A DNA stretch of 64,000 bases from Methanobacteriota archaeon (GCA_014240385.1 JAAZXA010000068.1:29090-93089), one strand, 5' to 3'. Positions 11,145-41,376 are shown, counted from the first letter of the stretch. Made by a program: numbers and translations. Notes: generated from the letters alone by a model not told the origin.

Positions 11145-11389
11145 GAGCGGTTAGGCCATTTACATCTCTTCCTTCTGTCCATGTTTCTCTGAACTCAAAC
11201 TCCTACCATCAGGTCGTCCGAACTGCGGATTTGCTCCTGTCTCGTTCAATGTAGGTTCTCAAGCAAAGGCCATTTTGGACTAGGTAATTATGTTCCATTG
11301 GCCGTCCCCCGGCTACTTGTTGACTTTGCGTTGGTGCCGTCCAAGGATAGGACACCTTTTGCTTATCGTCGTATTGAGCCGTGAGCGGT
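11145..11389 (-). ncRNA. non-coding island B
   Basis: opens with ACCGCTCACGG (11381-11389), conserved hairpin at 11333-11356, closes with PM-ATG at 11144; only shadow ORFs. Confidence 0.4.
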
Positions 11390-19768: not shown

Positions 19769-20035
19769 TTAATCATCGTAGCCTCTATCTGAATTGTAAA
19801 TGCTAGCGAACTCGCTGAATATTCTTTCGGTATCTCCTAGATCTCCAAAGTGCATCAGCAAGTTCCATGCATTCCATACTTCACCTGAAGGAGAATTGTT
19901 GATTGCTCCCCCAATTTGTTTTACTTCGATTTCGCCATTCTCGGCTGCTTTGATGCCAGCCGCTAGAAAGTCCTCGACCAAATCAACGGCTTTCTCTAGC
20001 GAATCCTCTTCCAATTTTCCAATGTTCAATGACAT
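19769..20035 (-). CDS. hypothetical protein (88 aa)
   Basis: track ORF; PM-ATG at 20035. Confidence 0.7.
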   Translation of the reverse strand: MSLNIGKLEEDSLEKAVDLVEDFLAAGIKAAENGEIEVKQIGGAINNSPSGEVWNAWNLLMHFGDLGDTERIFSEFASIYNSDRGYDD

Positions 20036-20045
20036 GAGCGGTGAT

Positions 20046-20486
20046 TCATTTGCGAATCAGCCAGTTGAAGAATAACTTCTCGTCGTCTGCCAAGTGATAT
20101 TGGCATACGGTGAGGAATCTGTCGTGTCCTTCAAACCATCTTCGATATTGTTCTTGAATCCAAGTGTCAGAAGCGCAAGCGATAATTTCGCTTCGGTTCT
20201 GCTTTGCGTATTTCCAAAGATTCTTGGGTTTCATGTCCACGAAGTTATCGTCTGTTATCATAATCACGATTTCAGCGAATGGAAAGAGTGTTAGGGATTT
20301 AATGCTTACCATTTCCTCGAGTGTTCGTTCATCAAATCGGCAGGCTGGGTGAGTTGCATAGAACTCAGCAAAACCAGCCGAACCATTATTCATGTGCCAT
20401 TTCTCAATGAGCATTTCTAACGACTTGTAGATTACTCTGTCGAGCAGTTTTCCTGCTTCTTGTATTTGTTCAACGAATGTTGTCAT
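20046..20486 (-). CDS. hypothetical protein (146 aa)
   Basis: track ORF 20046..20516 trimmed to PM-ATG at 20486. Confidence 0.75.
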   Translation of the reverse strand: MTTFVEQIQEAGKLLDRVIYKSLEMLIEKWHMNNGSAGFAEFYATHPACRFDERTLEEMVSIKSLTLFPFAEIVIMITDDNFVDMKPKNLWKYAKQNRSEIIACASDTWIQEQYRRWFEGHDRFLTVCQYHLADDEKLFFNWLIRK

Positions 20487-20512
20487 GAGCGGTTGTTTTT
20501 GCCGAGGGTATT

Positions 20513-21271
20513 TCAAGCCTTCTTCTCAACCCAGTTAGCGAGTTCACGCATCATTTCGTTCCTAACGCTGTTCAGGGCGGCATTTACCACCCTGATTCCG
20601 GTTTTCAAACTCTTCCGGTGCGCCTCGCTGTTAAATGTGTTATCTGCAGCCTGTAGTTGAGTTTCAAGAACTCTTGATATTTGGGACTCCAAAGCCCCAT
20701 TGAGTGTTGAGTACCCTTGGGCTTCGTAAGTTGAGCCAAAGGGGTTTACTTCTTCTCGGTTTTCCCTAACACGAAATGTGGCTTCCTTACGATTTCTACT
20801 GATTTCTTGTTTGATCCAGTCTATATCGTTGTACCAAACATCTCGGTTTTGCCTGCCATTAATGAACAGGCGAGGGTACCAACGGTGGCCGTATTGTGAT
20901 ATTATTTCAACTTCACAATATTCTCGGTGGTTTTCGTTGTTTTTATCATAGCCCCACCTTTTCCATTCTTTTCGGAAATTGGGTAGGTGTCTGCTGACAC
21001 CCCCTCCAAAACCTGAGTCTTTGGTTGAATAGGATAGGCTGCTCAAATATCGTTCTTGATCCGTTCTAGCCACGCTAATTCTGGCGTAGTTAGAGCGGCC
21101 AAATGATTTTGGGTATTTGATTTCGTAAACATCCGGGTTCAGGTAAACACCATGCTTGTTGTAGGTATGGTATTTCGTATTCGTACAACCTTCCTCTTTC
21201 AAATTCTTTTCGAAAGGGCAGGTGTATGGGATTACTCCCTCAACCGGTAATTTCCATTGCATTTCTGCCAT
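20513..21271 (-). CDS. hypothetical protein (252 aa)
   Basis: track ORF; PM-ATG at 21271. Confidence 0.75.
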   Translation of the reverse strand: MAEMQWKLPVEGVIPYTCPFEKNLKEEGCTNTKYHTYNKHGVYLNPDVYEIKYPKSFGRSNYARISVARTDQERYLSSLSYSTKDSGFGGGVSRHLPNFRKEWKRWGYDKNNENHREYCEVEIISQYGHRWYPRLFINGRQNRDVWYNDIDWIKQEISRNRKEATFRVRENREEVNPFGSTYEAQGYSTLNGALESQISRVLETQLQAADNTFNSEAHRKSLKTGIRVVNAALNSVRNEMMRELANWVEKKA

Positions 21272-21280
21272 GAGCGGTGT

Positions 21281-21832
21281 TTATTCCTCTTTTGAGAGGA
21301 TTGTTGTTGTTGAGTTCACCCAGTCTTGCCAGTTGTCGTCAAAAACGACTGTTCTCTCGACTGCGTTAACACAAACATATCCGTGAACGCTTGATTCTGT
21401 AGCGAATCCTCCGTATTCAGCGTAGATTTGTTGTGCAAACAAGTTTCTAACCTCCGTGGGTTCTTCCATTTCTTCTGGTGGAATTTTTCTGTAAGAGCCA
21501 TTCTCACCGTTGAAATCGTATGTGCGAACTGCTCCGTTGTCTTCATCATAGTCATCAGTTCCAATTAGAATCACCAAGTCTTGCTTGAGTGTTGGCATTC
21601 CATCTTTCTGTTCCCATTTCTTAGTCTCGGGGTTTAGATATGTTCCTTCTCCAACGACCAAGCCCTCTTTGAAGGTCTTGTGACCTTTGCCGATTATAGC
21701 TTGGATGTCGTCACAATATCCTTCATCGTGACCTCCGTTGAAATTAACGGTTATCTGTTCGTAGCCTAATTCTGTCATTCTGTCCATTAGGGCATTCCAA
21801 TCTTCTTCTGGTATCACACTTTTTGTGTTCAT
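21281..21832 (-). CDS. hypothetical protein (183 aa)
   Basis: track ORF 21281..21856 trimmed to PM-ATG at 21832. Confidence 0.75.
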   Translation of the reverse strand: MNTKSVIPEEDWNALMDRMTELGYEQITVNFNGGHDEGYCDDIQAIIGKGHKTFKEGLVVGEGTYLNPETKKWEQKDGMPTLKQDLVILIGTDDYDEDNGAVRTYDFNGENGSYRKIPPEEMEEPTEVRNLFAQQIYAEYGGFATESSVHGYVCVNAVERTVVFDDNWQDWVNSTTTILSKEE

Positions 21833-21842
21833 GAGCGGTGTC

Positions 21843-22385
21843 TCATCCAAAGACAACTTTTCCCATTGTTATGCATTGAAGCATTACATCGGAAGTAATT
21901 GCATCGCCAGATTCGCTGACGAAATCTTCGAAGTGCCTTTGGTAACTTTCAGACATTGTTTGAAGTCCAGATTCAATGGTCTGTTGATTGACAACTCCGA
22001 GAACCTCTGCGTATATCCAGTCATCCTTCTCTTCACTCCATTCTCTCGATTCTAAGTCGTAAATGGTGATCTCGCCTCCCAAGAATGGGATTTGGTGATG
22101 GTAGATGTATCGCTTATTTTCTCTAAGCCAGTCGAAATCTTCTTCACACTTCTTTCCGTAAGGTAAGAAATTAGTTTCTTGGTGGTGTGAATTTTTATGC
22201 TCAACTAATCGTCTTGCGTTCTCCTCTTTGATTAGAGGGTCTCCATGATTGATTCGTGCGCATCCTGCGTGGTTTGTTACGCTTGATCTAGCCCAGTAAC
22301 CTGAGCCTCCTTCAAACGCACCACTAAGGCACGACCATGTATCTCTGTCTTCAACTTCTTTTTCGATAGTAACATTGTACTTCAT
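21843..22385 (-). CDS. hypothetical protein (180 aa)
   Basis: track ORF; PM-ATG at 22385. Confidence 0.75.
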   Translation of the reverse strand: MKYNVTIEKEVEDRDTWSCLSGAFEGGSGYWARSSVTNHAGCARINHGDPLIKEENARRLVEHKNSHHQETNFLPYGKKCEEDFDWLRENKRYIYHHQIPFLGGEITIYDLESREWSEEKDDWIYAEVLGVVNQQTIESGLQTMSESYQRHFEDFVSESGDAITSDVMLQCITMGKVVFG

Positions 22386-22400
22386 GAGCGGTATATGGTT

Positions 22401-22904
22401 TCATTCTGTGTTTGGTTCCCAATCGTCGAAGGTAACCTTTGTCGGTTGGCTTTCGCTCCATGATTCACCATGAACCTCAATCTTGATATCTTCAATCTTG
22501 ATATGTTCTAGGTTTGATTGGACGCACCAAACACCGTGGACTCCCATGTTCTCCGTGATACTGACTCTCCACAATTTATTGTGTAGTTTCACAATGTATT
22601 CGTAGGATTCGTGTATTGAATCTTCAACTGGGGGGAATCTGTCTGTGCTTGTGAAGCTTAGACTGCTTTCGCAGTTCCATGCGTTGTGTAGCACAAGGAA
22701 CTCTTCTTCACCGATATTATCGGATGATGAGAAGGTCCAAGGTATGAGTTCATCATATTCTTCTCCTGCCCACTCCCATTCTGGGTCATTTTTTTCATAT
22801 GGGTTGGGGCATCCCTCATACCATATCTTTCCTTCATGTCGGTAGTGGGTTCTTCCCGGGTAGTATTCGTTCAGAAGTTCTTCTTCTGCTGGTGTATATT
22901 CCAT
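22401..22904 (-). CDS. hypothetical acidic protein (167 aa)
   Basis: track ORF; PM-ATG at 22904. Confidence 0.75.
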   Translation of the reverse strand: MEYTPAEEELLNEYYPGRTHYRHEGKIWYEGCPNPYEKNDPEWEWAGEEYDELIPWTFSSSDNIGEEEFLVLHNAWNCESSLSFTSTDRFPPVEDSIHESYEYIVKLHNKLWRVSITENMGVHGVWCVQSNLEHIKIEDIKIEVHGESWSESQPTKVTFDDWEPNTE

Positions 22905-22948
22905 GAGCGGTGTTATTTGGATCAGTTATTCTAGATCTTCGGTGGTTC
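22902..22948 (-). repeat. 47-nt gene-junction repeat, copy 1
   Basis: CATGAGCGGTGTTATTTGGATCAGTTATTCTAGATCTTCGGTGGTTC; near-identical to 27797-27843. Confidence 0.85.
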
Positions 22949-23137
22949 CAGCCCGTACACTACATGAGTAATCCTGATTTGGATTTCTCCTTCACAGTTG
23001 TTGCAGAAGTAGTAGTAGGTGTCGTGTTCGACGCTCTCCGTGTCTAGATCGCCGTCATCTTTGCACCAGGGGCATTCTCCGAATCCTTGCGGATCCAGTT
23101 CTTCTCCCACTTTGATGCTAATCTCTTTTGATGTCAT
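22931..23137 (-). CDS. zinc-ribbon protein (68 aa)
   Basis: track ORF; PM-ATG at 23137; CPWC...CNNC. Confidence 0.7.
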   Translation of the reverse strand: MTSKEISIKVGEELDPQGFGECPWCKDDGDLDTESVEHDTYYYFCNNCEGEIQIRITHVVYGLEPPKI

Positions 23138-23160
23138 GAGCGGTGTTTTGAGTCTAAACT

Positions 23161-23349
23161 CTAAACAATGTAGGTGCCTAGGGCTACTGCTGCAGTAAGT
23201 ACAACGAAATTTATCGCTACCATGAGGGCGAGAAACGATCCACTTCGGGCTGTCTTCTTTTCCTCAATGTACTCATTCAATGCTGTTGTGTTTCCCTTCA
23301 CGATTAGGTTGAAGGTTTCTGTTGGCATACAAACTGTTTTGTCAGTCAT
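23161..23349 (-). CDS. small membrane protein (62 aa, C-terminal TM)
   Basis: track ORF 23161..23370 trimmed to PM-ATG at 23349; FLALMVAINFVVLTAAVALGTYIV. Confidence 0.65.
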   Translation of the reverse strand: MTDKTVCMPTETFNLIVKGNTTALNEYIEEKKTARSGSFLALMVAINFVVLTAAVALGTYIV

Positions 23350-23366
23350 GAGCGGTAGTCGTCCCG

Positions 23367-24494
23367 TCACTTGAGTTCGGTTACAGCGTGAAGGCTGACC
23401 GTGTTCAAATTTGTAGTTTCATGGTACAATATTAGTTGCTTCGATTTGAAGCCTAACCATAATTGTCCCTTTCTGTCTGTAGGGGCGATTAAATCATTCA
23501 GCGTGTCTGTACACACGGACAACGATGAAACCTTCTTTCTGATGGCAACTTCGTCGGTGTCGAATTTCAATCTGAATACTTCGCCATCCTTCTTGCTGCC
23601 ATTGTAGGCTACCATTGTAAGTTCTCCGTTTTGTGTTCCCTCGAAGTAAACCCTCGAGGTCAAGGACGCTGCTGTTTTCACATGTCCAGCAAATTCTTTC
23701 AAATCAAGGATTTCAACATTGTAATCCTCTTCGTCAAATGTTGGAATTTCAACCCTATAGCCCTTATTGGCGTAGGTTGTCGAGTAAGGTTCATATTTGA
23801 CCTTCTCTGATTCCATCGAAAAAGTGTATTCGATTCTGTCGCCGGTTTCCTCTTTGAGGTGGAATGTCAATTCCTTTGAGTTCCTGGCAGCTTCAGCAAT
23901 TTTCTTGTTGCTTGATTCTGCGCCGGTACTTAACCGGAATGGCATGTTTTCAATAACAACGGGTGTGCTATCCTCTGCCGCACATGTTAATCTCCACTCA
24001 AGTGCTGATGTGGATCTGTAGTGCGATGTCTTGGATTGCTTCCCAATGCCATTGAAGTCCATTATTGAATCTGCGGCGTATTCTCCTGCGGATAATTTCT
24101 TATCAATGATTGTGAATCGTTTAACCGATTCGGAATCGAGTGTTATTGCGAATGATTTGGTTGAATTAGGGGTCATCCCGGCACTATCCCTACGGGCGGC
24201 GGCGGGGTGTTTTGGTCTATATTCAACCGGTTCTTCGTCATCCTCTTCATCCTCTTCATCATCTTCTTCATAGATGTCTGAGTCATTGATTTGTTCCCAT
24301 TCTTCATCCGTGATTAATATTGAGTCATCTTCTTCATGTTCATCATCTTCTTCGGATAAGGAGTCATTAACTCCTGTGAATGATTCTGGATCTGTGTCCT
24401 GTTCTGTCTCTGATTCACTTGCGCCCAGTTTCTCTTCCGATACTCCTAGTGATTCGGCAAGTAATCTTCGGGTTGTTTCCCAATCTAGAGTCAT
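23367..24494 (-). CDS. hypothetical protein with poly-acidic N-terminal region (375 aa)
   Basis: track ORF 23367..24587 trimmed to PM-ATG at 24494; EEDDEEDEEDDEE run. Confidence 0.75.
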   Translation of the reverse strand: MTLDWETTRRLLAESLGVSEEKLGASESETEQDTDPESFTGVNDSLSEEDDEHEEDDSILITDEEWEQINDSDIYEEDDEEDEEDDEEPVEYRPKHPAAARRDSAGMTPNSTKSFAITLDSESVKRFTIIDKKLSAGEYAADSIMDFNGIGKQSKTSHYRSTSALEWRLTCAAEDSTPVVIENMPFRLSTGAESSNKKIAEAARNSKELTFHLKEETGDRIEYTFSMESEKVKYEPYSTTYANKGYRVEIPTFDEEDYNVEILDLKEFAGHVKTAASLTSRVYFEGTQNGELTMVAYNGSKKDGEVFRLKFDTDEVAIRKKVSSLSVCTDTLNDLIAPTDRKGQLWLGFKSKQLILYHETTNLNTVSLHAVTELK

Positions 24495-24705
24495 GAGCGG
24501 TACAGTATCTTTCCCCCGGTTGCGCAGGACATATTTCCAATTCAACCGTGTCGGTATCAAATCTGTGTTCTCTGCCACAATGTCCACATTCCAAACGCCA
24601 GTCTACATCGTAGATTTCAGCTCCCAGTATTCTTGGGTGTTTGATTTTGGATAATGGCACCCATATTGTAGGAAGTCTTGCTTGCAGGATATCTAATTTG
24701 TCCAT
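24415..24705 (-). CDS. zinc-ribbon protein (96 aa) reading through the next PM
   Basis: track ORF; PM-ATG at 24705; CGHCGREH; overlaps the next gene by 80 nt. Confidence 0.6.
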   Translation of the reverse strand: MDKLDILQARLPTIWVPLSKIKHPRILGAEIYDVDWRLECGHCGREHRFDTDTVELEICPAQPGERYCTAHDSRLGNNPKITCRITRSIGRETGRK

Positions 24706-24717
24706 GAGCGGTGCGTG

Positions 24718-25596
24718 TTAAACGCGTCTTTTGATAGCCTCATTAACTGACTTCAACCTTTCAAGGAAAGTGTCGAGGTTTTCGATTGTGTCGTCAAATT
24801 CGTTCACAATCTCGATAATTTTCCTCTCCATCTTTTTCTCCTTTACGAAGATGCTTACCATTTCAGGGGGGTCTTCACTTTGCTGGACTTGTGCTGGCAC
24901 AGGTCCTGTGGATTTCTTTCCCTTTTCTTTGCGGTGTTCAGTAAACGGTTCTATTCCGTCTTCATCTACCCAAATGGTTTCCTTCTCGGTATGCAGGATA
25001 TCCGTTTCAATGAGTCCTTCGTACATCGGCTTTTCATCGTCGTATTCTTCGATTAACTCATTTTGTAGTTCGGATTCTAATACATCCACGAAGTTTGAAT
25101 CTAATTCACGAACTTCTGTGGTTTCTTCGGTTTCCTCTGCATCTGGAACGGGTTCGGAGCAATCGAAATTACTTGAGATGTAGTCTAGCATTGCTTGTTT
25201 GGGGTCTTTCCCCTCAGCAATTGCTTTTCCTGCTACATCGAAAATATTCTCTGAATTCTCTAGTACCTGTTCGTTGTCCTTGACCCATTCCAATGCCAAT
25301 ACTTCTTGCATTAATTCTACAATGTCGGCTGGAGGGTCTTCGGGCTCTTCGGTAGTAGGTTCCTCTTCGGTTTCAGTCTCAACCTTGACTTTTGGTTCTG
25401 AAAACTTGGCTGTAAGGTAGGACGCCATTTCAAATCTCCTCTTCTGGGATGAATCGATGTCGTTAAACTGTCCTCCATCGATTGCATTGTTGAGGTAATC
25501 TTCGGCGGCTACCATGTGCCGGTCTCTCCACCCTTCGTCTGTTAGGTCGGTTAATTTGTTTATCACATAGTTCATATCATCTATGATCTCTTGCAT
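24718..25596 (-). CDS. hypothetical highly acidic protein (292 aa)
   Basis: track ORF; PM-ATG at 25596. Confidence 0.75.
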   Translation of the reverse strand: MQEIIDDMNYVINKLTDLTDEGWRDRHMVAAEDYLNNAIDGGQFNDIDSSQKRRFEMASYLTAKFSEPKVKVETETEEEPTTEEPEDPPADIVELMQEVLALEWVKDNEQVLENSENIFDVAGKAIAEGKDPKQAMLDYISSNFDCSEPVPDAEETEETTEVRELDSNFVDVLESELQNELIEEYDDEKPMYEGLIETDILHTEKETIWVDEDGIEPFTEHRKEKGKKSTGPVPAQVQQSEDPPEMVSIFVKEKKMERKIIEIVNEFDDTIENLDTFLERLKSVNEAIKRRV

Positions 25597-25606
25597 GAGC
25601 GGTTCA

Positions 25607-25813
25607 TTATTCCATTATCCTCACGAAACTTCCGAATGGTTTGCGGCATTTAGCGTGAATCCAAAGGTTCTTGGTGATGCTCAATTGGCTTCCGGGCTTA
25701 TTCTTCATTGAAATTGCCCTTTCTCCTTTTGTCATCAATTCTCCACACCATACGCAAATTTGTTGTTCTGTTTGTGAGGTTCTCCATACAATTCTGTCGT
25801 GTATTTGGGTCAT
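25607..25813 (-). CDS. zinc-finger protein (68 aa)
   Basis: track ORF 25607..25879 trimmed to PM-ATG at 25813; CVWCGE...HAKC. Confidence 0.65.
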   Translation of the reverse strand: MTQIHDRIVWRTSQTEQQICVWCGELMTKGERAISMKNKPGSQLSITKNLWIHAKCRKPFGSFVRIME

Positions 25814-25823
25814 GAGCGGTTGT

Positions 25824-26096
25824 CTATGGCAATGGTGCAACCATTTGAGCCATAGGTGGGCTTGGCGGAACAATCTCAATTAATCCTTCAATGCCTGTTG
25901 CAAGGGCTAAGAGGACCTTTCGGTGGATGGTTAAGCGGTGGATTAATTCGTCCAATACATCTGCGCCTTCCAACTCTGCTATGTTTTCCGCCAGACCATT
26001 AGTTGGATTCCACCTGTCTTGGTGCTTTTCCATTAGGTCTGCTTCGTATTTCACTAGGTCAATTCCTAGTAATTCGTGTTGATATTCTTCTAACAT
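25824..26096 (-). CDS. hypothetical protein (90 aa)
   Basis: track ORF; PM-ATG at 26096. Confidence 0.7.
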   Translation of the reverse strand: MLEEYQHELLGIDLVKYEADLMEKHQDRWNPTNGLAENIAELEGADVLDELIHRLTIHRKVLLALATGIEGLIEIVPPSPPMAQMVAPLP

Positions 26097-26340
26097 GAGC
26101 GGTTCTTTTCATTCCAGCGGGGGATGTTTCGTCACCTTGAACTTGAGCCGACCCCCATCACTTGATTCTTGCCTACAAGCAGTGGGGAGGTATCTTTCAG
26201 TGGTGGGCGAGTATCGAGCCCCTTGTTTCAAAGAACCCGGTTATATCATTGGTTGTCTCCTTTCGAGTTTCTTCGGTGTCGTCCAAGGATTGGACACCTA
26301 CTTTCTCTACTTTGGACTGCAATAAGTCCCCGTGAGCGGT
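26097..26340 (-). ncRNA. non-coding island C
   Basis: opens with TGA-ATACCGCTCACGG (26332-26340), conserved hairpin at 26275-26298, closes with PM-ATG at 26096. Confidence 0.4.
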
Positions 26341-26342
26341 AT

Positions 26343-26711
26343 TCACAAATCTCTGTCCAGCAGTAAGGACCTTAATTCACTCCAACAGTCTTGGATTGCT
26401 CCAGGGTCGGTATGTCCTTCAATTGGCCTTACTTCTGCTAAGATTGTGCTGATTAGGTCTCTTACTCGTTCATAATCTACAGTTTTGATTTCATTGTATG
26501 CATCGGCAATCTCATTTTGAATCGACTCATCGATAAACGATGATGTTGCGTCCATAGCGAGCGTTTGCAATATTATCTCTGCTGCTGATTCGGGTAAAAT
26601 CCAAATCGTTTTGGCGTGTCTTTTGCCGAGGTCGATGTAATCGACTCCTTCCTCTAGTTCATCTAGTCTTTTGGCAAATTCTTTTCCATCTACAAGATCT
26701 TCTCTTGGCAT
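26343..26711 (-). CDS. hypothetical protein (122 aa)
   Basis: track ORF 26343..26750 trimmed to PM-ATG at 26711 (CATGAGCGGA). Confidence 0.7.
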   Translation of the reverse strand: MPREDLVDGKEFAKRLDELEEGVDYIDLGKRHAKTIWILPESAAEIILQTLAMDATSSFIDESIQNEIADAYNEIKTVDYERVRDLISTILAEVRPIEGHTDPGAIQDCWSELRSLLLDRDL

Positions 26712-26753
26712 GAGCGGATTACACAAGTTAGGTGTTTCAAACTGGGGCATCGT

Positions 26754-27338
26754 TCATCCTCCACGGATGCACTCCAGTTCGCACCTTTCCCATGCTTTCT
26801 CTGAGATTCCGAGTTCCATAGCCTTCTTTCGGCTCTTTTCCTCATCCATCTCCCATTCATCTTCGTTGTGCCATACGATGTAATCTGACATGTTTCCGTC
26901 TTCTACTTCTTCTCCGTTTACCCACCAACCCCAGAAATCCATGCCGGCTTCCATAAAGGAAGCATCGACTTCGAATCCGTTGTTGTATAGGTGTTCATAG
27001 ATTGGGAAGGTAGGACTCCATGCTGAATCAAATCTGATTTCCAGTATGTTTTCGTCTGGGTCTAAATGGCAATGAGTCCGTCCGTAGTTGTTTTCGTCAA
27101 CTTCTGCGGGTATGGCCCATTTGGTTCCCCAATTGTTCACATTCCAATTTCTCCACCAAGTCGGGTCGCTATGAAGCTCCTGCTGTGATGTTTCATATTC
27201 ATCACGGTAAGCAGGTGTGTCCGGCGGTGGGATTAGGAATTGGAACAATCCAGTTTCCTTTGTTGCTTTTTCTATTTCAATTAATTTCTGTCTATCATCG
27301 TGTTTGATGATGACATGGTTGTTTGTCCAATTAGGCAT
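26754..27338 (-). CDS. DUF1281/Api92-like protein (194 aa)
   Basis: PM-ATG; MPNWTNNHVII...NWGTKWA pattern recalled from the MPNW...WGTKW plasmid/phage family (from memory). Confidence 0.55.
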   Translation of the reverse strand: MPNWTNNHVIIKHDDRQKLIEIEKATKETGLFQFLIPPPDTPAYRDEYETSQQELHSDPTWWRNWNVNNWGTKWAIPAEVDENNYGRTHCHLDPDENILEIRFDSAWSPTFPIYEHLYNNGFEVDASFMEAGMDFWGWWVNGEEVEDGNMSDYIVWHNEDEWEMDEEKSRKKAMELGISEKAWERCELECIRGG

Positions 27339-27346
27339 GAGCGGTT

Positions 27347-27799
27347 CTAAATGATGAGTTCTGCAATTTTGATAATTTCATGTTGTAAATCAACTTGATT
27401 GTTGATTTCCAAGACTTCTTCCTCGTGAATTATTCGGTCAGTCTTTGCTTTGAGGGCTTGAAGGGATTGGTCTGCTAAAACCAAACCAATCTTCAAAGCC
27501 TCAACTTCTGGGAATCCATATTCCTTCAAGTAGCCTGTAATCCAAACGACACTTCGGTTGAGGTCGTGATTTAGAGAATTGCAATAAACCATATCTGAGT
27601 ATTGTTCTAGGGATAGGTTCAAAGCTTCTCTTTTTGACAGACAGACATCTTTCATGATGAGTTCACCATCAATTATGTCATCTTCCTCTGTGTGCATGAT
27701 TTTCTCATTCCAGTAATCTTGGTAGTTTTCTTCGCCTTTTTCGTGTAAGCCGATCCAAGCGCCATACCATTCATCGATTTCTCCGGTTTCGTTTTCCAT
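27347..27799 (-). CDS. hypothetical protein (150 aa)
   Basis: track ORF; PM-ATG at 27799. Confidence 0.75.
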   Translation of the reverse strand: MENETGEIDEWYGAWIGLHEKGEENYQDYWNEKIMHTEEDDIIDGELIMKDVCLSKREALNLSLEQYSDMVYCNSLNHDLNRSVVWITGYLKEYGFPEVEALKIGLVLADQSLQALKAKTDRIIHEEEVLEINNQVDLQHEIIKIAELII

Positions 27800-27843
27800 G
27801 AGCGGTGTATTTGGATCAGTTATTCTAGATCTTCGGTTGGTTC
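27797..27843 (-). repeat. 47-nt gene-junction repeat, copy 2
   Basis: CATGAGCGGTGTATTTGGATCAGTTATTCTAGATCTTCGGTTGGTTC; covers the stop region in a different reading frame from copy 1. Confidence 0.85.
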
Positions 27844-28146
27844 GATTTCTACGATGTAGATTTCGATGCCTTTGGCCTCCAACCAGTCTAATGTGTCGTC
27901 AAAACTCCGATGGTCTTGTTTGAACTCTTCTGTCAAATCAACCATCATGCCTTGCATACATTCATGTGCAATTGCATCAGAGTTGAACGACCAATCCATA
28001 TCTCTCCAACCCATTCCGAATCCAGAACCACCATCGGTCATGTATTCGTCATATTTGTTGGCTATCTCATCCATTCGTTTGCTACGGTTGCTGAAAGTCT
28101 CGATGTTTCCATCGTCCTTCCATCTGAGCATTACTCTGTATTCCAT
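27820..28146 (-). CDS. hypothetical protein (108 aa)
   Basis: track ORF; PM-ATG at 28146. Confidence 0.75.
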   Translation of the reverse strand: MEYRVMLRWKDDGNIETFSNRSKRMDEIANKYDEYMTDGGSGFGMGWRDMDWSFNSDAIAHECMQGMMVDLTEEFKQDHRSFDDTLDWLEAKGIEIYIVEIEPTEDLE

Positions 28147-28155
28147 GAGCGGTTT

Positions 28156-28443
28156 TTAGAACTCGTTTGTAGTTCCTGTTTTGAGTAATGTGATGATTAT
28201 CCGATTAACGGCAATCATCCTATTTGTAATCGCCTTATCGTCAAAATTCTCAAAGTAAGCCATGAGCATTTCATAGTGAGGCATGTTCCATTGATGTGTC
28301 GGTAAAATAAGTTTTTCAACTGCTTCTACATCTGTTGGTTTCAAATTGTCTGATTGTCTGAGGATAGTTGAAGGGAGTTGTCCTGTTTGGTCGTTGAAAC
28401 CCCATGTTGCTTCTAACATCTTTCTAATCCATTTATCTTCCAT
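28156..28443 (-). CDS. hypothetical protein (95 aa)
   Basis: track ORF; PM-ATG at 28443. Confidence 0.7.
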   Translation of the reverse strand: MEDKWIRKMLEATWGFNDQTGQLPSTILRQSDNLKPTDVEAVEKLILPTHQWNMPHYEMLMAYFENFDDKAITNRMIAVNRIIITLLKTGTTNEF

Positions 28444-28449
28444 GAGCGG

Positions 28450-28515
28450 TTAATCCTCTTCGTATTCTTCGAAGATGTATTCTTCTGTTTCAATGCGTAA
28501 TATCAATGTCGGCAT
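28450..28515 (-). CDS. acidic micro-protein (21 aa)
   Basis: PM-ATG at 28515 (CATGAGCGGC); MPTLILRIETEEYIFEEYEED; stop TAA abuts the next PM. Confidence 0.4.
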   Translation of the reverse strand: MPTLILRIETEEYIFEEYEED

Positions 28516-28530
28516 GAGCGGCTCAAACCA

Positions 28531-28797
28531 TCAAGATGGTTTGTAGCAGTTTGATTCGTTTGTTGTTATTCTGATTGTTGAATCTGATATTGACTCGAGC
28601 AATACATCTCCATCATCCTTGACCTTAATTACTATGCAGAAATCTCCGGGCTCGATTATCTCGTCCTCGCTATTTGTTTCTGCAGCATAAAGGCTCACGA
28701 AGTCTCCGACTTCGAAGTTGTTTTGTGAAGTTGTGTAGTTCTGTTCGTATGCGTCTTCAATCAGTTTCTTTAACCGGGTTGCTACTCTTCTTCCCAT
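28531..28797 (-). CDS. hypothetical protein (88 aa)
   Basis: track ORF; PM-ATG at 28797. Confidence 0.7.
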   Translation of the reverse strand: MGRRVATRLKKLIEDAYEQNYTTSQNNFEVGDFVSLYAAETNSEDEIIEPGDFCIVIKVKDDGDVLLESISDSTIRITTNESNCYKPS

Positions 28798-28806
28798 GAG
28801 CGGTGT

Positions 28807-29073
28807 TCATTCTTCTTCAAGATCATCCCAGTGGATAAAATCTCTTTTCATTGTCCTTCTTTTGAATTTAGGGGTGTTTTCTACAAATGGGTCGGGTATT
28901 GTATTTGTCTCTTCTGGTTTGCCAAAAATATAGGCGAACCAGAAATACATCAATATCCCCATAAGAATTATCGTATAGGGGTCTTGCAGCCATTCGTAGA
29001 TGAGTGCGCATAGCAATCCTGTGCAAATTGCTGCTAGTGCGTTTCTTACATTCAATTCAATGTATTGTTCCAT
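28807..29073 (-). CDS. membrane protein (88 aa, 2 TM)
   Basis: track ORF; PM-ATG at 29073; AAICTGLLCALIY and IILMGILMYFWFAYIF. Confidence 0.7.
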   Translation of the reverse strand: MEQYIELNVRNALAAICTGLLCALIYEWLQDPYTIILMGILMYFWFAYIFGKPEETNTIPDPFVENTPKFKRRTMKRDFIHWDDLEEE

Positions 29074-29378
29074 GAGCGGTTTGTACCGGCATACTCTTGC
29101 TTAGACTGTTCGCTGGACAGTTGGCCTGTGAATCTAACTGCAACACTCCGTCTTCCCGTTTCTGTCTCCGTAGATACAATTGAGGGAAGCTGCGGGTTTG
29201 TCAATTGACTCGATGGCATCGTGGCCGAAGCCGCAGGATGCCCTAAGCAGTATCTTACCGTAGGTACTTACCCGACTCGCCAATTAGGGGTCACACCATC
29301 CATGACTGTTGGTGCCGTCCAAGGATTGGACACCGTAAGCGTATTGGTTCTGCCCCGGTTAGGTCTGTCGTGAGCGGT
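29074..29378 (-). ncRNA. non-coding island D
   Basis: opens with TAA-ACCGCTCACGA (29370-29378), conserved hairpin at 29311-29334, closes with PM-ATG at 29073. Confidence 0.4.
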
Positions 29379-29585
29379 TTAATCATTTCTAACAAGGTTG
29401 TAGACATATTCGAATAAATCTCTTCCTTGTTCTGTGAAGCCAGATGGATCATCGTCGTTTTCAACGATGTTTCCTTCTGCATCTAGGTTGTATAGTAACT
29501 TGCGTTCAATAAGTCCTTCATCAATTAAATATTCGATTACTGAATCTCCTGCATCGCAAGCTTCTCCTATGTTGTTTTCTTCCAT
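29379..29585 (-). CDS. hypothetical acidic protein (68 aa)
   Basis: track ORF; PM-ATG at 29585. Confidence 0.7.
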   Translation of the reverse strand: MEENNIGEACDAGDSVIEYLIDEGLIERKLLYNLDAEGNIVENDDDPSGFTEQGRDLFEYVYNLVRND

Positions 29586-29592
29586 GAGCGGT

Positions 29593-30459
29593 TTATGTCC
29601 AAAGACTCCTCGTCATCCTCCATATCCCTGCTTTTGCGAAGTCAGGGTGTTTTTCTATCCCTACTGCGTGTCGCCCTGTGAGCATCGCAGCCAATCCTAG
29701 GCTGTATGATCCTGCAAACGGGTCGAGCACTACATCTCCAGGATAAGTGGAGAAGCGAATAAGTTCAATCAAGAGTTCAACAGGCTTTTCTGTCTGGTGA
29801 ACCTTCTTCCTACCCATCATTCTAGAGTGGGTTTGAACATCTGCTATGCTGTTATTGATTCTTCTGCGCTTCCCTTTCGAGAAGAACAGAATTAGTTCGT
29901 GTCGTGGCCGACCATTGTAGCCAAGTGATATGACTTTCTTATCCCATACCCATTGGCTATTGAATGTGAAACCTGCGGCTTCTGCAATCTTGATTTGATT
30001 GTAGATGTAGTCGTAGGTGTCGTGCTTTGCTGCAGGCATGAAGCAAAAGAAGTGTCCATTGGGCTTCAAGACCCTAAGCATCTCCGAATACAAATCCGAA
30101 TCGATGTCTTTGGTCTCAAAATCCCATCCCTTCTTGAGATTCCTTGCTCGGGTAGTTCCCGTCTGCATTTGAGCATTCAAGATTGAATACGGAGGATCTG
30201 TGATGATAGCATCGAAGCTGTTATCTTCTAACTTTGCTAATTCATCCCAACTGTCTCCTTCAATCAAAGCGCATTGTGTGTCGCCAACTGTGGCGATGTA
30301 TATGCCTCTTGATACTCTGCGAAAGCACTTGTCTATGTTTTCATTGAGTCTTCCACGAATTGTTGTTTCCTTTTCATCAGGCAATGCTTCGTATATCTCC
30401 TTGAGATTCGATTCATTGTCTGCTAGAAATTCAACCAATCTTTCTTTCAATGTTTTCAT
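29593..30459 (-). CDS. DNA methyltransferase (beta-class N4-C/N6-A, DPPY) with N-terminal wHTH
   Basis: track ORF 29593..30480 trimmed to PM-ATG at 30459; IITDPPYS then C-terminal VVLDPFAGSYS. Confidence 0.8.
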   Translation of the reverse strand: MKTLKERLVEFLADNESNLKEIYEALPDEKETTIRGRLNENIDKCFRRVSRGIYIATVGDTQCALIEGDSWDELAKLEDNSFDAIITDPPYSILNAQMQTGTTRARNLKKGWDFETKDIDSDLYSEMLRVLKPNGHFFCFMPAAKHDTYDYIYNQIKIAEAAGFTFNSQWVWDKKVISLGYNGRPRHELILFFSKGKRRRINNSIADVQTHSRMMGRKKVHQTEKPVELLIELIRFSTYPGDVVLDPFAGSYSLGLAAMLTGRHAVGIEKHPDFAKAGIWRMTRSLWT

Positions 30460-30480
30460 GAGCGGTTCAGTTTGGGTCAA

Positions 30481-30774
30481 CTAATCTTCAGTTTGATGAG
30501 ACCAGTTTTCGGGTTGTTTGAGCCAAAGTCCAAAAAGCACCTGGGCTCCGTAGTAGGTTCCGAAAGTTTCCAAATCCGATTCCTCGTAGCCGTCTTTTGA
30601 TTCGTGAATGACATAGAACAATTGTTCCATGGTTAGATCTTCTGGTATTTTCCATTCATCTCCGTAATCGTCATTACATTCCAACAAATCGTCGTTTGCG
30701 ATTTTATCTGAGGGTGCTTCCTTAACGATTCCCGATATTGGGTTCCAGAAAGTTCCTGATATTGTTTTAGTCAT
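30481..30774 (-). CDS. hypothetical protein (97 aa)
   Basis: track ORF; PM-ATG at 30774. Confidence 0.7.
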   Translation of the reverse strand: MTKTISGTFWNPISGIVKEAPSDKIANDDLLECNDDYGDEWKIPEDLTMEQLFYVIHESKDGYEESDLETFGTYYGAQVLFGLWLKQPENWSHQTED

Positions 30775-30783
30775 GAGCGGTGT

Positions 30784-30858
30784 TCAAATTTCGTGACAAC
30801 AAGCCATGCACTTGTTTCTGCACATGGCGTATAGTCTGCATACTCTGCATTGTTCCAT
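30784..30858 (-). CDS. Cys-rich micro-protein (24 aa)
   Basis: PM-ATG at 30858; MEQCRVCRLYAMCRNKCMACCHEI; stop TGA followed by the next PM. Confidence 0.45.
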   Translation of the reverse strand: MEQCRVCRLYAMCRNKCMACCHEI

Positions 30859-30865
30859 GAGCGGT

Positions 30866-31207
30866 TTATTCACCATGATGCCATTTGAGAGCCTTTTCAT
30901 CCCAAGGCCCCCAATGCAGGTGATTTAGTACATTCTCAATTACTTCTTCATAGGTGTATTCAATAATCTCATCGGGATTGATTTTTCCTCGTCTGAAGTA
31001 AATCTCCCATGCCATCTTCACCATTCCATTTGGCCCCGATGGGTCAAAAACCCATTCGGTTAGCCATTCATCTGTGAATCTGACAAAGGCGTGGCCGTAT
31101 CGAATTCCTTCGATTTCTCCCTCGCCTGTTACTTCGGCGTGGACTAATCGGTATTCTGGATTCTCTTGAGCCAATTGAGCTGCTAATCGATAGCATTCTC
31201 CTTTCAT
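30866..31207 (-). CDS. hypothetical protein (113 aa)
   Basis: track ORF; PM-ATG at 31207. Confidence 0.75.
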   Translation of the reverse strand: MKGECYRLAAQLAQENPEYRLVHAEVTGEGEIEGIRYGHAFVRFTDEWLTEWVFDPSGPNGMVKMAWEIYFRRGKINPDEIIEYTYEEVIENVLNHLHWGPWDEKALKWHHGE

Positions 31208-40778: not shown

Positions 40779-40800
40779 GTGGGGTATGGGAAGACTTTGT

Positions 40801-40841
40801 CTTCCTCATTAGCATAGGTCATAGGGGCCGTAGGCCCTGAC
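40801..40841 (-). repeat. 41-nt promoter-like module, copy 1
   Basis: CTTCCTCATTAGCATAGGTCATAGGGGCCGTAGGCCCTGAC; contains the GGGCC-GTA-GGCCC hairpin and, in minus sense, CCCTATGACC. Confidence 0.8.
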
Positions 40842-41034
40842 CGTTTTAGTCATGTTTTGGTGCTAAGTTTTATTCTACCTCTCGATAGAAACGGCGCAAA
40901 GCAACCTTTGGACTCCTCCCGTAAAGGGTGGTGTGTGTGGTGTTACGGGTGTCCATGGGTCTCTCTCGCCAATAAAGCGAGTTGTAGGCGTACTCCAACG
41001 CCTCGTTGTTCGTCAATGATTTGACTACACCTCA

Positions 41035-41168
41035 TGGTGGACCGTGCTGGATTCGAACCAGCGGCCTCCTAAGACAGACAACTTCGACTCCTTCCGTCCT
41101 GCCCGGGACAGTTCGGTTTTTGTCTTATTCTGTTTCTTAGGCGCTCTTCCTGACTGAGCTAACGGCCC
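41035..41168 (-). tRNA. tRNA-like gene with a 57-nt insertion in the anticodon loop and encoded CCA; identity unresolved
   Basis: reverse complement folds as GGGCCGT/TA/GCTC-AGTCAGGAA-GAGC/G/CCTAA-[64 nt]-TTAGG/AGGCC/GCTGG-TTCGAAT-CCAGC/ACGGTCC/A/CCA. Confidence 0.75.
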
Positions 41169-41193
41169 GTAACGGTGTTTTGAGGAAGTATTT

Positions 41194-41234: not shown

Positions 41235-41376
41235 CCATTTGTGTGTGGTTTTTGTGTGTTTGTGAGCGGTTTAGCCTGATTTCCAATCCATACTGACGAA
41301 CTTCCTCGTAAACCAATTCTGGCCTTTCGGCACTCTCGGTTTGCGTAAGAGAGCGAGATCGTTCCCCGTGAGGGGC

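What the first reader, a model, noticed from the sequence alone, without database searches (positions are those of the whole stretch)
22902..27843. A 47-nt junction sequence duplicated at two distant gene boundaries and read in different frames
Positions 22902-22948 and 27797-27843 are near-identical. In transcript sense they read GAACC(A)CCGAAGATCTAGAATAACTGATCCAAATA(A)CACCGCTCATG. The repeat covers the last codons of two unrelated genes, read in different frames (…EPPKI* versus …EPTEDLE*), plus the unusually long 20-26 nt spacer and the motif-ATG of two unrelated downstream genes. Conservation therefore acts on the nucleic acid, not the protein. The element includes the palindromes AGATCT and TCTAGA. 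It could be a binding site for a regulator or sRNA, or a recombination module-exchange point.
Basis: seen in the sequence. Interest (0 to 1): 0.5.

Follow-up and report, generated by a model that had tools for sequence, protein, structure and literature searches.

The report
Recombination scar at two gene junctions
A 47-base stretch repeated at two gene boundaries of an uncultured marine, probably archaeal, virus is most likely a leftover of DNA exchange between the tail ends of two genes, not a regulatory signal, and it illustrates how this virus shuffles its genes.

Summary
The repeat is real. Positions 22902-22948 and 27797-27843 (minus strand) share 47 nt with two 1-nt indels and a 30-nt exact core; none is expected by chance. 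It is the only junction pair of 95 sharing more than 15 nt upstream.

Its last 10-12 nt are generic. ACCGCTC+ATG precedes 87 genes in the window.

The first 24 nt are ordinary coding sequence: the conserved C-terminus of the 108-aa gene family (EPTEDLE*; relatives end NPEDYE/D*). So site B is that part's home.

At site A the same bases form a 15-nt in-frame insertion in the tail of a Zn-ribbon gene. Relatives of that gene end RPPK[A/D]K* plus a canonical 7-nt junction.

A ~97% identical relative carries both copies, identical over 47 nt, but with a different left edge at A. More distant relatives with the same heptamer have short canonical junctions at three of the four flanking genes.

I found no RNA structure, no excess of palindromes and no antisense partner.

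Best reading (0.68): a hybrid junction made by non-reciprocal recombination from B to A, in a genome where five whole-gene gains or losses break inside the heptamer. It could mediate loss or exchange of the 4.9-kb block between the copies. Interest is modest.

The parts
27797..27843 (-). Repeat copy B, the source context. It consists of the last 24 nt of the 108-aa gene (GAA CCA ACC GAA GAT CTA GAA TAA), a 13-nt extra spacer (CTGATCCAAATAC), the start heptamer ACCGCTC (27800-27806) and the ATG of the 150-aa gene (27797-27799).
   Evidence: Sequence. The C-terminus EPTEDLE* aligns with the family end NPEDYE/D*. Relatives show DNA homology and a canonical 7-8 nt junction.
22902..22948 (-). Repeat copy A, the derived context. 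The same sequence is read one frame off by the 68-aa Zn-ribbon gene (GAA CCA CCG AAG ATC TAG = EPPKI*). A 26-nt spacer, the heptamer (22905-22911) and the ATG of the 167-aa gene (22902-22904) follow.
   Evidence: Sequence. Zn-ribbon relatives end ...AGG CCT CCA AAG G[C/A]C AAA TAA followed directly by ACCGCTC. Relative to them, site A carries a 15-nt in-frame insertion (ATCTAGAATAACTGA), most of it identical to the 108-aa gene tail.
27820..28146 (-). 108-aa gene of unknown function. Its native 3' end supplies the 5' two-thirds of the repeat.
   Evidence: No Pfam family. Twelve homologs have a conserved C-terminus. In relatives the gene that follows it varies.
22931..23137 (-). 68-aa Zn-ribbon gene (CxxC...CxxC). 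Its tail has been rewritten by the repeat.
   Evidence: Weak Lar-like zinc-ribbon hit, E = 0.042. Homologs in L002 (79%), L024, L025 and L027. The stretch 22948-22970 is a divergent patch against L002, 15 of 30 identical.
27347..27799 (-). 150-aa gene downstream of copy B. It is unrelated to the 167-aa gene.
   Evidence: Its homolog in L016 has a canonical 8-nt junction. A homolog of 81% identity sits in a contig that uses a different start heptamer.
22401..22904 (-). 167-aa gene downstream of copy A.
   Evidence: In L017 (56% identity) it has a canonical 8-nt junction, and the gene before it ends with a 108-like tail, TEEDYE*. It is absent between the Zn-ribbon and 180-aa gene homologs in L027.
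22949..27796 (-). The 4.85-kb block between the two direct repeat copies. It holds about 12 heptamer-preceded genes (150-aa gene to Zn-ribbon gene) and one non-coding unit. Recombination between A and B would loop it out.
   Evidence: Gene list. The deletion product itself was not observed; this is an inference.
27807..27831 (-). Imperfect internal tandem inside the repeat: GATCTAGAATAAC / T / GATC-CAAATA(A)C. It matches at 10 of 13 positions in the copy A and L012 version. This is one possible origin of the 13-nt extra spacer.
   Evidence: Read by eye from the sequence and recorded in note 4. No statistic was run. It is suggestive only.

Best explanation
The 47-mer is a hybrid gene junction, a recombination product rather than a dedicated cis-element.

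**Anatomy.**
- The 5' two-thirds is the native 3' end of the 108-aa gene, at home at site B.
- The 3' end is the ACCGCTC+ATG start signal that every gene in this genome carries.
- Between them lies a 13-nt spacer specific to this lineage. It arose either as a slipped tandem copy of the gene tail or from the tail of the Zn-ribbon gene.

**How the second copy arose.** A patch of the B junction was copied non-reciprocally, by gene conversion or microhomology-mediated patch repair, into the tail of the Zn-ribbon gene at site A. The likely homologies are short: CC(A)CCGAAG on the left and CCAAATAAC-ACCGCTCATGGAA on the right. There the patch is read in another frame, supplies a premature TAG, and pushes the old Zn-ribbon stop (…CC AAA TAA) into the spacer.

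**Setting.** This happened in a viral early region built of small gene cassettes that are constantly gained, lost and reordered by recombination at the shared start motif.

**What is shown.** The composition of the repeat, its homology to the native gene ends, its restriction to one lineage, the differing left edges, and the breakpoints in the motif.

**What is inferred.** The direction (B to A), the microhomology mechanism and the order of events.

**Consequence (inferred).** As the longest direct repeat in the region, it is a ready substrate for deleting or swapping the 4.85-kb block between the copies.
For: 1. **The 5' part is coding sequence at home in B.** The window's 108-aa protein ends IEIYIVEIEPTEDLE*. 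Twelve homologs (57-72% identity) mostly end IEIYITEINPEDYD/E*. At DNA level, CCA ACC GAA GAT CTA GAA TAA compares with CCA GAA GAT TAC GA[AC] TGA followed directly by ACCGCTCATG in L024, L026, L027, L028 and L017.

2. **At A the same bases are an insertion.** Zn-ribbon homologs in L024, L025 and L027 end ...RPPK[AD]K* as AGG CCT CCA AAG G[CA]C AAA TAA|ACCGCTC. The window has CCA CCG AAG + ATCTAGAATAACTGA + TCC AAA TAA C|ACCGCTC. That is a 15-nt in-frame insertion.

3. **The element is restricted to one lineage.** Relatives that keep the ACCGCTC heptamer and homologs of the flanking genes have 7-8 nt junctions. This holds for the 108 family (L024-L029, L017), the 167 family (L017) and the 150 family (L016). 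The 29-mer and a 20-mer are absent from IMG/VR and from JGI metagenomes.

4. **Signs of recent or repeated exchange.** In the ~97% identical relative (L002 and L012, two scaffolds of one metagenome, taken to be one virus) the two copies are identical over 47 nt. Its copy A starts at ...CAG|CAACCGAAG, after TPPQ. The window's starts at ...CTG|GAACCA-CCGAAG and matches the window's own B (GAACCA) rather than that relative's B (GAGCCA). The left edge of copy A coincides with a divergent patch between the window and L002. An 86-nt identical run starts at 22943.

5. **The genome shuffles cassettes at junctions.** Five whole-gene presence/absence differences between the window and L002/L012 all have breakpoints inside ACCGCTCATG. 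One inserted gene is flanked by a 24-nt direct junction repeat. Gene order is scrambled among relatives.

6. **No independent sign of function**.
Against: - Only two genome lineages carry the element, and they are ~97% identical where they align. Its perfect conservation therefore says little either way about selection.
- The origin of the 13-nt spacer is ambiguous. It could be an internal tandem (10 of 13 matches) or the Zn-ribbon tail (8 of 12 matches).
- It is unresolved whether the window's GAACCA-CCGAAG at A is B-derived with a 1-nt deletion, or native Zn-ribbon PPK codons that happened to be microhomologous.
- No empty site (108-aa gene, one copy, 167-aa gene) and no deletion or circular product was found.
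- A neutral scar could still have been co-opted. No expression data were available.
Confidence: 0.68

Rival explanations
1. A functional cis-regulatory element selected at both junctions. It could be an operator for a viral DNA-binding protein, an internal archaeal promoter, or an sRNA or RNA-binding-protein target controlling the 150-aa and 167-aa genes.
For: - Four copies in two lineages show no substitution in the 29-nt core.
- The element sits immediately upstream of two start codons.
- It contains A/T-rich TAGAATAA at about -27 to -21 and A/T at -10/-11 relative to the ATG. This loosely resembles a haloarchaeal-type promoter for a leaderless mRNA. That reading comes from my own inspection and from general knowledge, and was not tested.
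Against: - It is absent upstream of homologs of both downstream genes in relatives that keep the same heptamer. L017 has an 8-nt junction before the 167-family gene and L016 an 8-nt junction before the 150-family gene.
- Each part is accounted for by homology to a gene's 3' end.
- No RNA structure.
- The palindromes occur at chance frequency.
- No antisense partner in the window.
- The 87 gene starts show no information content upstream of -12, so there is no general promoter-like layer here.
- The two carrier genomes are too similar for the conservation to be informative.
Confidence: 0.12
2. The two copies are attL/attR-like sites, or res-like sites, of a site-specific recombinase. They would flank a 4.85-kb mobile module that inserted between the 108-aa and 167-aa genes.
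For: - The copies are direct repeats flanking a discrete block of about 12 genes.
- A serine recombinase is encoded in the window at 57564-58385.
- Three indirect hints suggest that the 108 and 167 families were once adjacent. In L017 they are one gene apart, and the intervening gene ends in a 108-like tail. In another lineage, predicted proteins of both families (P0029 and P0003) carry the same roughly 38-aa N-terminal extension, which reads through a shared upstream non-coding unit.
Against: - The block carries the same start heptamer and the same gene families as the rest of the genome. It is not kept together in more distant relatives.
- The recombinase is 30 kb away and on the other side of the divergent region.
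- The repeat has no extended dyad symmetry beyond two overlapping 6-bp palindromes that occur at chance frequency.
- The left edge of copy A differs between the two lineages, which a precise site-specific event would not produce.
- Copy A retains the native Zn-ribbon stop next to the heptamer.
- No empty site was found.
Confidence: 0.08
3. Relic of a second, paralogous 108-family gene. It once lay between the Zn-ribbon gene and the 167-aa gene and has been deleted except for its last ~24 nt and its downstream spacer.
For: In L017 the gene directly upstream of the 167-family gene (92 aa) ends ACC GAA GAG GAT TAC GAA TGA (TEEDYE*). This is nearly the same tail as the 108-family gene one position upstream. 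The two L017 junctions share 25 of the last 26 nt. There is also a weak local similarity, TDxxS...DWS[FY]xSD.
Against: - hhalign finds no significant relationship between the 92-aa protein and the 108 family (probability 0.8%).
- The lineage-specific 13-nt spacer is shared by A and B. Even under this scenario a recent exchange between the sites is needed.
- The native Zn-ribbon stop persists in frame in the spacer. That fits a short patch insertion better than a large deletion.
Confidence: 0.1

Closest known systems
PeSL (promoter-early stem-loop) mobile regulatory cassettes that mediate modular shuffling in T4-type phages (PMC2839356; PMC4122927)
   Same: A short sequence repeated at the boundaries of many small, variable early genes. 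Insertions, deletions and replacements between closely related genomes have their breakpoints in that repeat (5 of 5 here). Duplicated junctions arise as by-products.
   Different: - Here the shared sequence is a 7-nt motif abutting the ATG (about 10-13 nt with the ATG and stop context). It is not a ~50-nt promoter plus terminator stem-loop.
- No stem-loop is predicted.
- The host is probably archaeal: an intron-containing tRNA and a weak TFIIB-like hit.
- The 47-mer is not a copy of a regulatory cassette. It is a piece of one gene's coding tail pasted into another gene's tail.
- Mini-circle intermediates could not be tested.
Mosaic 'novel joints' and boundary sequences of lambdoid and other tailed phages. 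These are illegitimate or microhomology-mediated recombination at gene boundaries, followed by selection. This comparison rests on my general knowledge of the phage-mosaicism literature; no paper was read for it here.
   Same: Sharp transitions between identical and divergent sequence occur at gene ends. Short fragments of a former neighbour gene are left behind at the joint. Out-of-frame reuse of such fragments as a new C-terminus and stop codon.
   Different: Both partners of the joint are still present in the same genome, 4.9 kb apart, as a near-perfect direct repeat. The same joint shows two different left edges in two near-identical genomes, which suggests repeated conversion rather than a single old event.
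Integron gene cassettes (attC/attI). This comparison rests on general knowledge.
   Same: Arrays of small promoter-less genes in one orientation, each bounded by a recombination-prone repeat. Cassette content varies between close relatives.
   Different: There is no integrase next to the array and no structured attC-like imperfect palindromes. The repeat abuts the start codon and is probably first of all an expression signal. Membership is not supported.

Membership tests
Recombination scar / hybrid junction (non-reciprocal transfer between gene 3' ends) | The repeated sequence is native, homologous coding sequence in one of its two contexts | tested here: met
   Site B reads EPTEDLE*, in register with the family end NPEDYE/D*. 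DNA homology to five relatives.
Recombination scar / hybrid junction (non-reciprocal transfer between gene 3' ends) | In the other context it is an insertion or replacement relative to that gene's family | tested here: met
   A 15-nt in-frame insertion relative to the Zn-ribbon homologs of L024, L025 and L027. The old stop CC AAA TAA is retained next to the heptamer.
Recombination scar / hybrid junction (non-reciprocal transfer between gene 3' ends) | Restricted to one lineage; the equivalent junctions of more distant relatives lack it | tested here: met
   Canonical 7-8 nt junctions in L016, L017 and L024-L029. No match in IMG/VR or JGI metagenomes.
Recombination scar / hybrid junction (non-reciprocal transfer between gene 3' ends) | The edges of the repeat coincide with mosaic breakpoints between close relatives | tested here: inconclusive
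   Met at the left edge of copy A: a divergent patch at 22948-22970, an identical run from 22943, and a different left edge in L002. Not seen at copy B, where the window and L012 are near-identical throughout.
PeSL-type mobile regulatory cassette | Gene gain/loss breakpoints between close relatives lie in the repeated junction sequence | tested here: met
   Five of five whole-gene differences break inside ACCGCTCATG. This holds for the heptamer, not specifically for the 47-mer.
PeSL-type mobile regulatory cassette | The repeat contains a promoter and a terminator-like stem-loop | tested here: not met
   Fold z-scores of -0.3 to +0.7. Sigma-70-like sites are fewer than in shuffles, 11 against 18.9. 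No terminator-like site at either junction.
PeSL-type mobile regulatory cassette | Excised circular cassette intermediates | not testable with these tools
   This needs read-level data or PCR.
Site-specific recombination site (att/res) of a serine recombinase | Dyad-symmetric core with a precise, invariant crossover point | tested here: not met
   Only the overlapping 6-bp palindromes AGATCT and TCTAGA, which occur at chance frequency. The left boundary of copy A differs between the window and L002.
Site-specific recombination site (att/res) of a serine recombinase | An empty site with a single copy in relatives, or an excision product | not tested
   No contig showing the 108-aa gene, one copy, then the 167-aa gene was found. 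Contig look-ups were exhausted (12 of 12 used).
Archaeal BRE/TATA promoter | An A/T-rich TATA element about 26-30 nt upstream of a mapped transcription start, conserved upstream of orthologous genes | tested here: inconclusive
   TAGAATAA lies at about -27 to -21 from the ATG, but no start-site data exist. The orthologous genes in L016 and L017 lack any such spacer.
Structured RNA element or sRNA target | Stable or conserved secondary structure, or a complementary partner RNA | tested here: not met
   Minimum free energy no better than shuffles. No Rfam family apart from tRNAs in the window. The longest antisense match in the window is 10 nt.

The most novel reading that the evidence does not exclude
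The 47-mer is not inert. It would be the visible tip of a cassette system without a dedicated recombinase, in a group of uncultured marine, probably archaeal, viruses.

In that system a lineage-specific heptamer abutting every start codon serves both as the expression signal and as the crossover point for gene shuffling. The heptamer is ACCGCTC here, and ACTGAAC or AATCAAT in related contigs.

The extended A/B repeat would then act as a long-homology handle. It would let a block of about 12 genes be looped out and reinserted as one super-cassette, and ongoing gene conversion would keep the two copies identical.
Probability: 0.15. Interest if true: 0.65.

Novelty: new member of a known kind. 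Interest (0 to 1): 0.3.

Why it matters
By itself the repeat is an ordinary by-product of phage-style mosaic evolution. Its value is as a dated, dissectable example.

- Both parent sequences of a hybrid joint are still present in one genome.
- Two near-identical genomes show different conversion edges.
- The surrounding region shows five clean cassette gains or losses with breakpoints in a 10-nt start motif.

Together these document how the early-gene region of an uncultured marine virus group is rebuilt. They also point to the more interesting object, the lineage-specific heptamer abutting every start codon, as the real exchange and expression signal.

Tried and rejected
**Searches for other copies or relatives**
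- Megablast of 20000-31000 against GenBank phages: no match.
- tblastn of two large proteins against phages: only remote PAPS-reductase-like hits, or none.
- Exact 29-mer in IMG/VR and exact 20-mer in JGI metagenomes: none.
- Close-relative searches for the 167-aa and 150-aa genes in IMG/VR: none.
- The 108 family in GTDB genomes, and the viral tRNA 5' half in GTDB genomes (for a host clue): none.

**Annotation of the flanking genes**
- Pfam on the four flanking proteins and six neighbours: nothing beyond two sub-threshold hits, the more relevant a Lar-like zinc ribbon at E = 0.042.

**Tests of a functional reading**
- RNA folding of both sites: no structure beyond shuffles.
- Sigma-70 promoter and intrinsic-terminator scan: not enriched and not relevant to either junction.
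- Antisense partner search: chance-level 10-mers only.

**Other checks**
- hhalign of the L017 92-aa protein against the 108 family, to test the paralog-relic idea: not significant.
- Literature search for the heptamer or a comparable start-adjacent motif in archaeal or marine viruses: nothing found.
- A check whether cassette breakpoints also fall in the heptamer in the ACTGAAC lineage. The one case examined (L006 against L010) breaks at an AGG microhomology about 10 nt upstream of the motif, so the rule is not universal.
- An ungapped junction comparison missed the A/B pair because of the 1-nt indel. It was redone with gapped blastn.

Full report
**1. Observation.**

On the minus strand the two sites read as follows.
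- Site A (22948->22902): GAACCA-CCGAAGATCTAGAATAACTGATCCAAATAACACCGCTCATG.
- Site B (27843->27797): GAACCAACCGAAGATCTAGAATAACTGATCCAAATA-CACCGCTCATG.

They are identical apart from two single-base indels. The 29-nt core occurs exactly twice in the window, even allowing three mismatches, with none expected.

- The 68-aa gene ends EPPKI* (TAG), 26 nt before the next ATG.
- The 108-aa gene ends EPTEDLE* (TAA), 20 nt before the next ATG.

The four flanking genes have no detectable relationship to each other. Both junctions are seen in independent assemblies: A in L001 and L002, B in L012. So it is not an assembly artefact.

**2. Context that changes the reading.**

The last 10-12 nt of the repeat are not specific to this pair.
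- CCGCTCATG occurs 88 times in the window against 0.36 expected. Eighty-seven are on the minus strand between 150 and 39077, one per gene start.
- The typical junction is stop codon + ACCGCTC + ATG. Fifty-eight of 86 junctions have 6-12 nt between stop and ATG, and 12 have 20-45 nt.
- Across the 87 starts there is no information content upstream of position -12.

So about 35 nt of the 47 are truly pair-specific, and the pair is a clear outlier. In a gapped all-against-all comparison of the 59 nt upstream of the heptamer at 95 junctions, A/B share 30 exact nt and the next pair shares 15.

The genome looks like an uncultured marine virus of an archaeon.
- One tRNA has a 57-nt insertion in the anticodon loop.
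- There is a weak TFIIB-like hit.
- Tail-like and other virion-protein family hits, and a serine recombinase, lie in the other half of the window.
- All related contigs come from marine metagenomes such as TARA, and some exceed 100 kb.
- Nothing similar exists among GenBank phages.

**3. Relatives.**

L002 and L012 are two scaffolds of one Mediterranean metagenome, so I treat them as one relative, though that is not proven. L002 is 96.8% identical to the window where alignable. L012 is near-identical over most of its alignable length. Both are mosaic, with divergent patches and whole-gene gains and losses. This relative carries both copies, and there they are identical to each other over 47 nt.

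More distant relatives keep the same ACCGCTC heptamer and have homologs of the flanking genes at 40-70% amino-acid identity. They lack the element.
- The 108-family gene is followed by a canonical 7-8 nt junction in L024, L026, L027, L028, L029 and L017. The gene that follows differs between several of them.
- The 167-family gene in L017 and the 150-family gene in L016 have 8-nt junctions.
- The Zn-ribbon homologs in L024, L025 and L027 have 7-nt junctions.

The 29-mer and a 20-mer are absent from IMG/VR and JGI metagenomes.

**4. Anatomy of the 47-mer.**

At B, the first 24 nt (GAA CCA ACC GAA GAT CTA GAA TAA) encode the conserved C-terminus of the 108 family. The window has IEIYIVEIEPTEDLE*, against IEIYITEINPEDYD/E* in most of twelve homologs. 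The DNA homology is plain: L024 has AAT CCA GAA GAT TAC GAA TGA followed directly by ACCGCTCATG. Relative to that canonical state, B carries 13 extra nt (CTGATCCAAATAC) between the stop and the heptamer.

At A, the Zn-ribbon family normally ends ...RPPK[A/D]K*, as AGG CCT CCA AAG G[C/A]C AAA TAA|ACCGCTC. The window has CCA CCG AAG - ATC TAG AAT AAC TGA - TCC AAA TAA C|ACCGCTC. That is a 15-nt in-frame insertion. Most of it is identical to the 108-gene tail. It supplies a premature TAG and leaves the old stop stranded in the spacer.

So the 5' two-thirds of the repeat is at home at B and foreign at A.

The 13-nt spacer has two possible origins that I cannot separate.
- An imperfect tandem copy of the gene tail: GATCTAGAATAAC / T / GATC-CAAATAAC, 10 of 13 matches, by eye.
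- The Zn-ribbon tail: CCAAATAA, 8 of 12 matches.

An independent example of how long spacers arise is L030. There a frameshift near the end of the 108-family gene creates an earlier stop and leaves the native ...DYD* TGA next to the heptamer.

**5. Evidence that recombination is the process.**

- The left edge of copy A differs between the two near-identical genomes. The window has ...GGG CTG|GAA CCA CCG AAG (GLEPPKI*). L002 has ...ACT CCG CCT CAG|CAA CCG AAG (TPPQQPKI*).
- The window's copy A carries GAACCA like its own copy B, whereas L012's copy B has GAGCCA.
- The stretch just upstream of copy A (22948-22970) is one of the divergent patches between the window and L002. An 86-nt identical run begins at 22943, inside the repeat.
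- Five whole-gene presence/absence differences between the window and L002/L012 all have breakpoints inside the shared ACCGCTCATG. They are the 62-aa and 95-aa genes of the window, and the 39-, 147- and 97-aa genes of the relative. The empty site is always the left flank of the left junction joined to the right flank of the right junction. The 147-aa insert is flanked by a 24-nt direct junction repeat.
- Gene order among relatives is thoroughly scrambled. In L027 the Zn-ribbon homolog is followed directly by the homolog of the 180-aa gene (21843-22385), without a 167-family gene.
- There are hints that the 108 and 167 families were once neighbours. In L017 they are one gene apart, and the intervening 92-aa gene ends with a 108-like tail, TEEDYE*. 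The two L017 junctions share 25 of the last 26 nt. In another lineage, predicted proteins of both families carry the same roughly 38-aa N-terminal extension, which is a read-through of a shared upstream non-coding unit.

**6. Tests of a dedicated function.**

- RNA folding of either site is no better than shuffles, with z from -0.3 to +0.7.
- AGATCT (27 against 26 expected) and TCTAGA (23 against 22) are not unusual in this genome, although other palindromes are strongly avoided.
- No antisense match longer than 10 nt exists in the window.
- No Rfam family other than tRNA is present.
- Bacterial promoter and terminator consensus scans are not enriched at the sites.
- The perfect conservation of the core in four copies is uninformative, because the two carrier genomes are ~97% identical anyway.

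**7. Most likely mechanism.**

Shown:
- The repeat is a composite of the 108-gene tail, a lineage-specific 13-nt spacer and the generic start signal.
- It is native at B and an insertion at A.
- It is young and restricted to one lineage.
- Its left edge at A varies.
- This genome exchanges cassettes at junction repeats.

Inferred:
- After the Zn-ribbon and 167-aa genes had come to lie side by side through a canonical junction (...CCN CCN AAG NCC AAA TAA C ACCGCTC ATG GAA), a patch of the B junction was copied into it.
- The copying was gene conversion or microhomology-mediated repair. The short homologies were CC(A)CCGAAG on the left and CCAAATAAC-ACCGCTCATGGAA on the right.
- The different left edges suggest this happened more than once, or with different tract lengths.

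The result has no evident cost. Both upstream genes still terminate, and both downstream genes keep the heptamer. I therefore treat the element as a scar (confidence about 0.68).

As a 47-nt direct repeat it should promote deletion or exchange of the 4.85-kb block between the copies. That block holds about 12 heptamer-preceded genes and one non-coding unit. I could not test this.

Rivals:
- A selected regulatory site (0.12).
- An att/res-like site of a mobile block (0.08).
- A relic of a deleted 108-family paralog (0.10). The hhalign test of the L017 92-aa protein against the family was negative.

**8. Comparison with what is known.**

The process resembles PeSL-mediated modular shuffling in T4-type phages (PMC2839356, PMC4122927), and the novel joints of mosaic tailed phages (the latter from general knowledge).

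It is not a PeSL. There is no promoter-plus-stem-loop, and the shared sequence is a heptamer abutting the ATG. It is also not an att site or an integron attC by the features I could test.

**9. Verdict.**

The finding is an ordinary kind of thing, a recombination scar, in an unusual genome. Interest is 0.3.

The more remarkable features are the start-adjacent heptamer and its lineage-specific variants, its use in front of non-coding units, and the total absence of ACGT. They are listed under things noticed in passing.

Noticed in passing
window 150-39077, minus strand (for example 22905-22911 and 27800-27806): Almost every gene is preceded by the heptamer ACCGCTC abutting the ATG, usually straight after the previous stop codon (TGA/TAA + ACCGCTC + ATG). 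There are 87 copies on one strand against 0.36 expected, and no information content upstream of -12. No Shine-Dalgarno-like spacing is seen. No description of such a motif was found in the literature searched.
   Followed up: partly
L003, L006-L011 and L013-L015 (ACTGAAC+ATG); L005 (hairpin GAGGATtaaATCCTC + AATCAAT + ATG); L016, L017 and L024-L030 (ACCGCTC+ATG): Related contigs that share gene families with the window use different heptamers abutting the start codon. The 150-aa gene has a homolog of 81% identity in an ACTGAAC-type contig (L013). So genes cross between lineages while the heptamer is lineage-specific. That suggests a virus-encoded reader of the motif.
   Followed up: partly
window minus strand at 2010, 11388, 11779, 26339, 29377, 32725, 35423 and 41269; hairpins at 1949-1985, 11330-11366, 26272-26308 and 29308-29344: The same heptamer followed by AC[A/G] instead of ATG heads most of the larger non-coding stretches (about 240-960 nt), and one such site (41269) lies beyond the gene array. 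Four of them contain a conserved hairpin, GGTGTCCAATCCTTGGACG[A/G]CACC, about 30 nt downstream. The motif therefore marks the start of non-coding units too. That argues against a purely translational role.
   Followed up: partly
window 23161-23349 and 28156-28443; L002 1813-1932; L012 6767-7210 and 8408-8701: Five whole-gene presence/absence differences between the window and its ~97% relative have breakpoints exactly inside ACCGCTCATG. The 147-aa insert in L012 is flanked by the 24-nt direct repeat GAAGAATGAACACCGCTCATGGGA. In the ACTGAAC lineage, the one case checked breaks about 10 nt upstream of the motif at an AGG microhomology.
   Followed up: yes
whole window: ACGT never occurs in 64 kb, against about 102 expected. 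CGCG (15 against 85), AGCT (60 against 191), GATC (147 against 304) and GTAC (87 against 187) are also depleted. This is strong avoidance of palindromes, probably of restriction sites. Two PAPS-reductase-like genes and an N6/N4 DNA methylase are encoded.
   Followed up: no
window 41038-41168 (-), 55297-55371 (-) and 59081-59156 (-): Three tRNA genes. The first has a 57-nt insertion in the anticodon loop, an archaeal-type intron, and ARAGORN missed it. An exact search with its 5' half found no host genome.
   Followed up: partly
window 40800-42555: The region where gene orientation switches holds several repeat families. One is three ~95-nt units spaced 133-134 nt apart (42190-42551). Another is a set of 46-48-nt units with the GC-rich palindrome GGCCGTAGGCC (40800, 41193, 42043). 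It may be an origin or a promoter cluster.
   Followed up: no
window 57564-58385 (-): Serine recombinase of 273 aa (Resolvase plus Recombinase domains), lying between the two standard tRNA genes. Its role is unknown, and no link to the repeat was found.
   Followed up: no
L020 1-190; proteins P0003 and P0029: In another lineage, a ~110-nt unit precedes a 167-family gene. The unit is ACCGCTCAC, a GC-rich hairpin, a T-run and a variant start motif CACCACTCATG. Judging from the nearly identical N-terminal extensions of the predicted proteins, it also precedes a 108-family gene. This is a second case of a shared upstream junction involving these two families.
   Followed up: partly
L030 4300-4370: The 108-family gene of this relative has a frameshifted tail (…NPRRRNPN*). 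The native ...DYD* TGA is still present next to the heptamer in another frame. This shows how long spacers arise from displaced native stops.
   Followed up: partly
window 51025-51168 (+): A run of GATGAG/GATGAT repeats with a 12-nt period, encoding an Asp/Glu-rich stretch within a plus-strand ORF.
   Followed up: no
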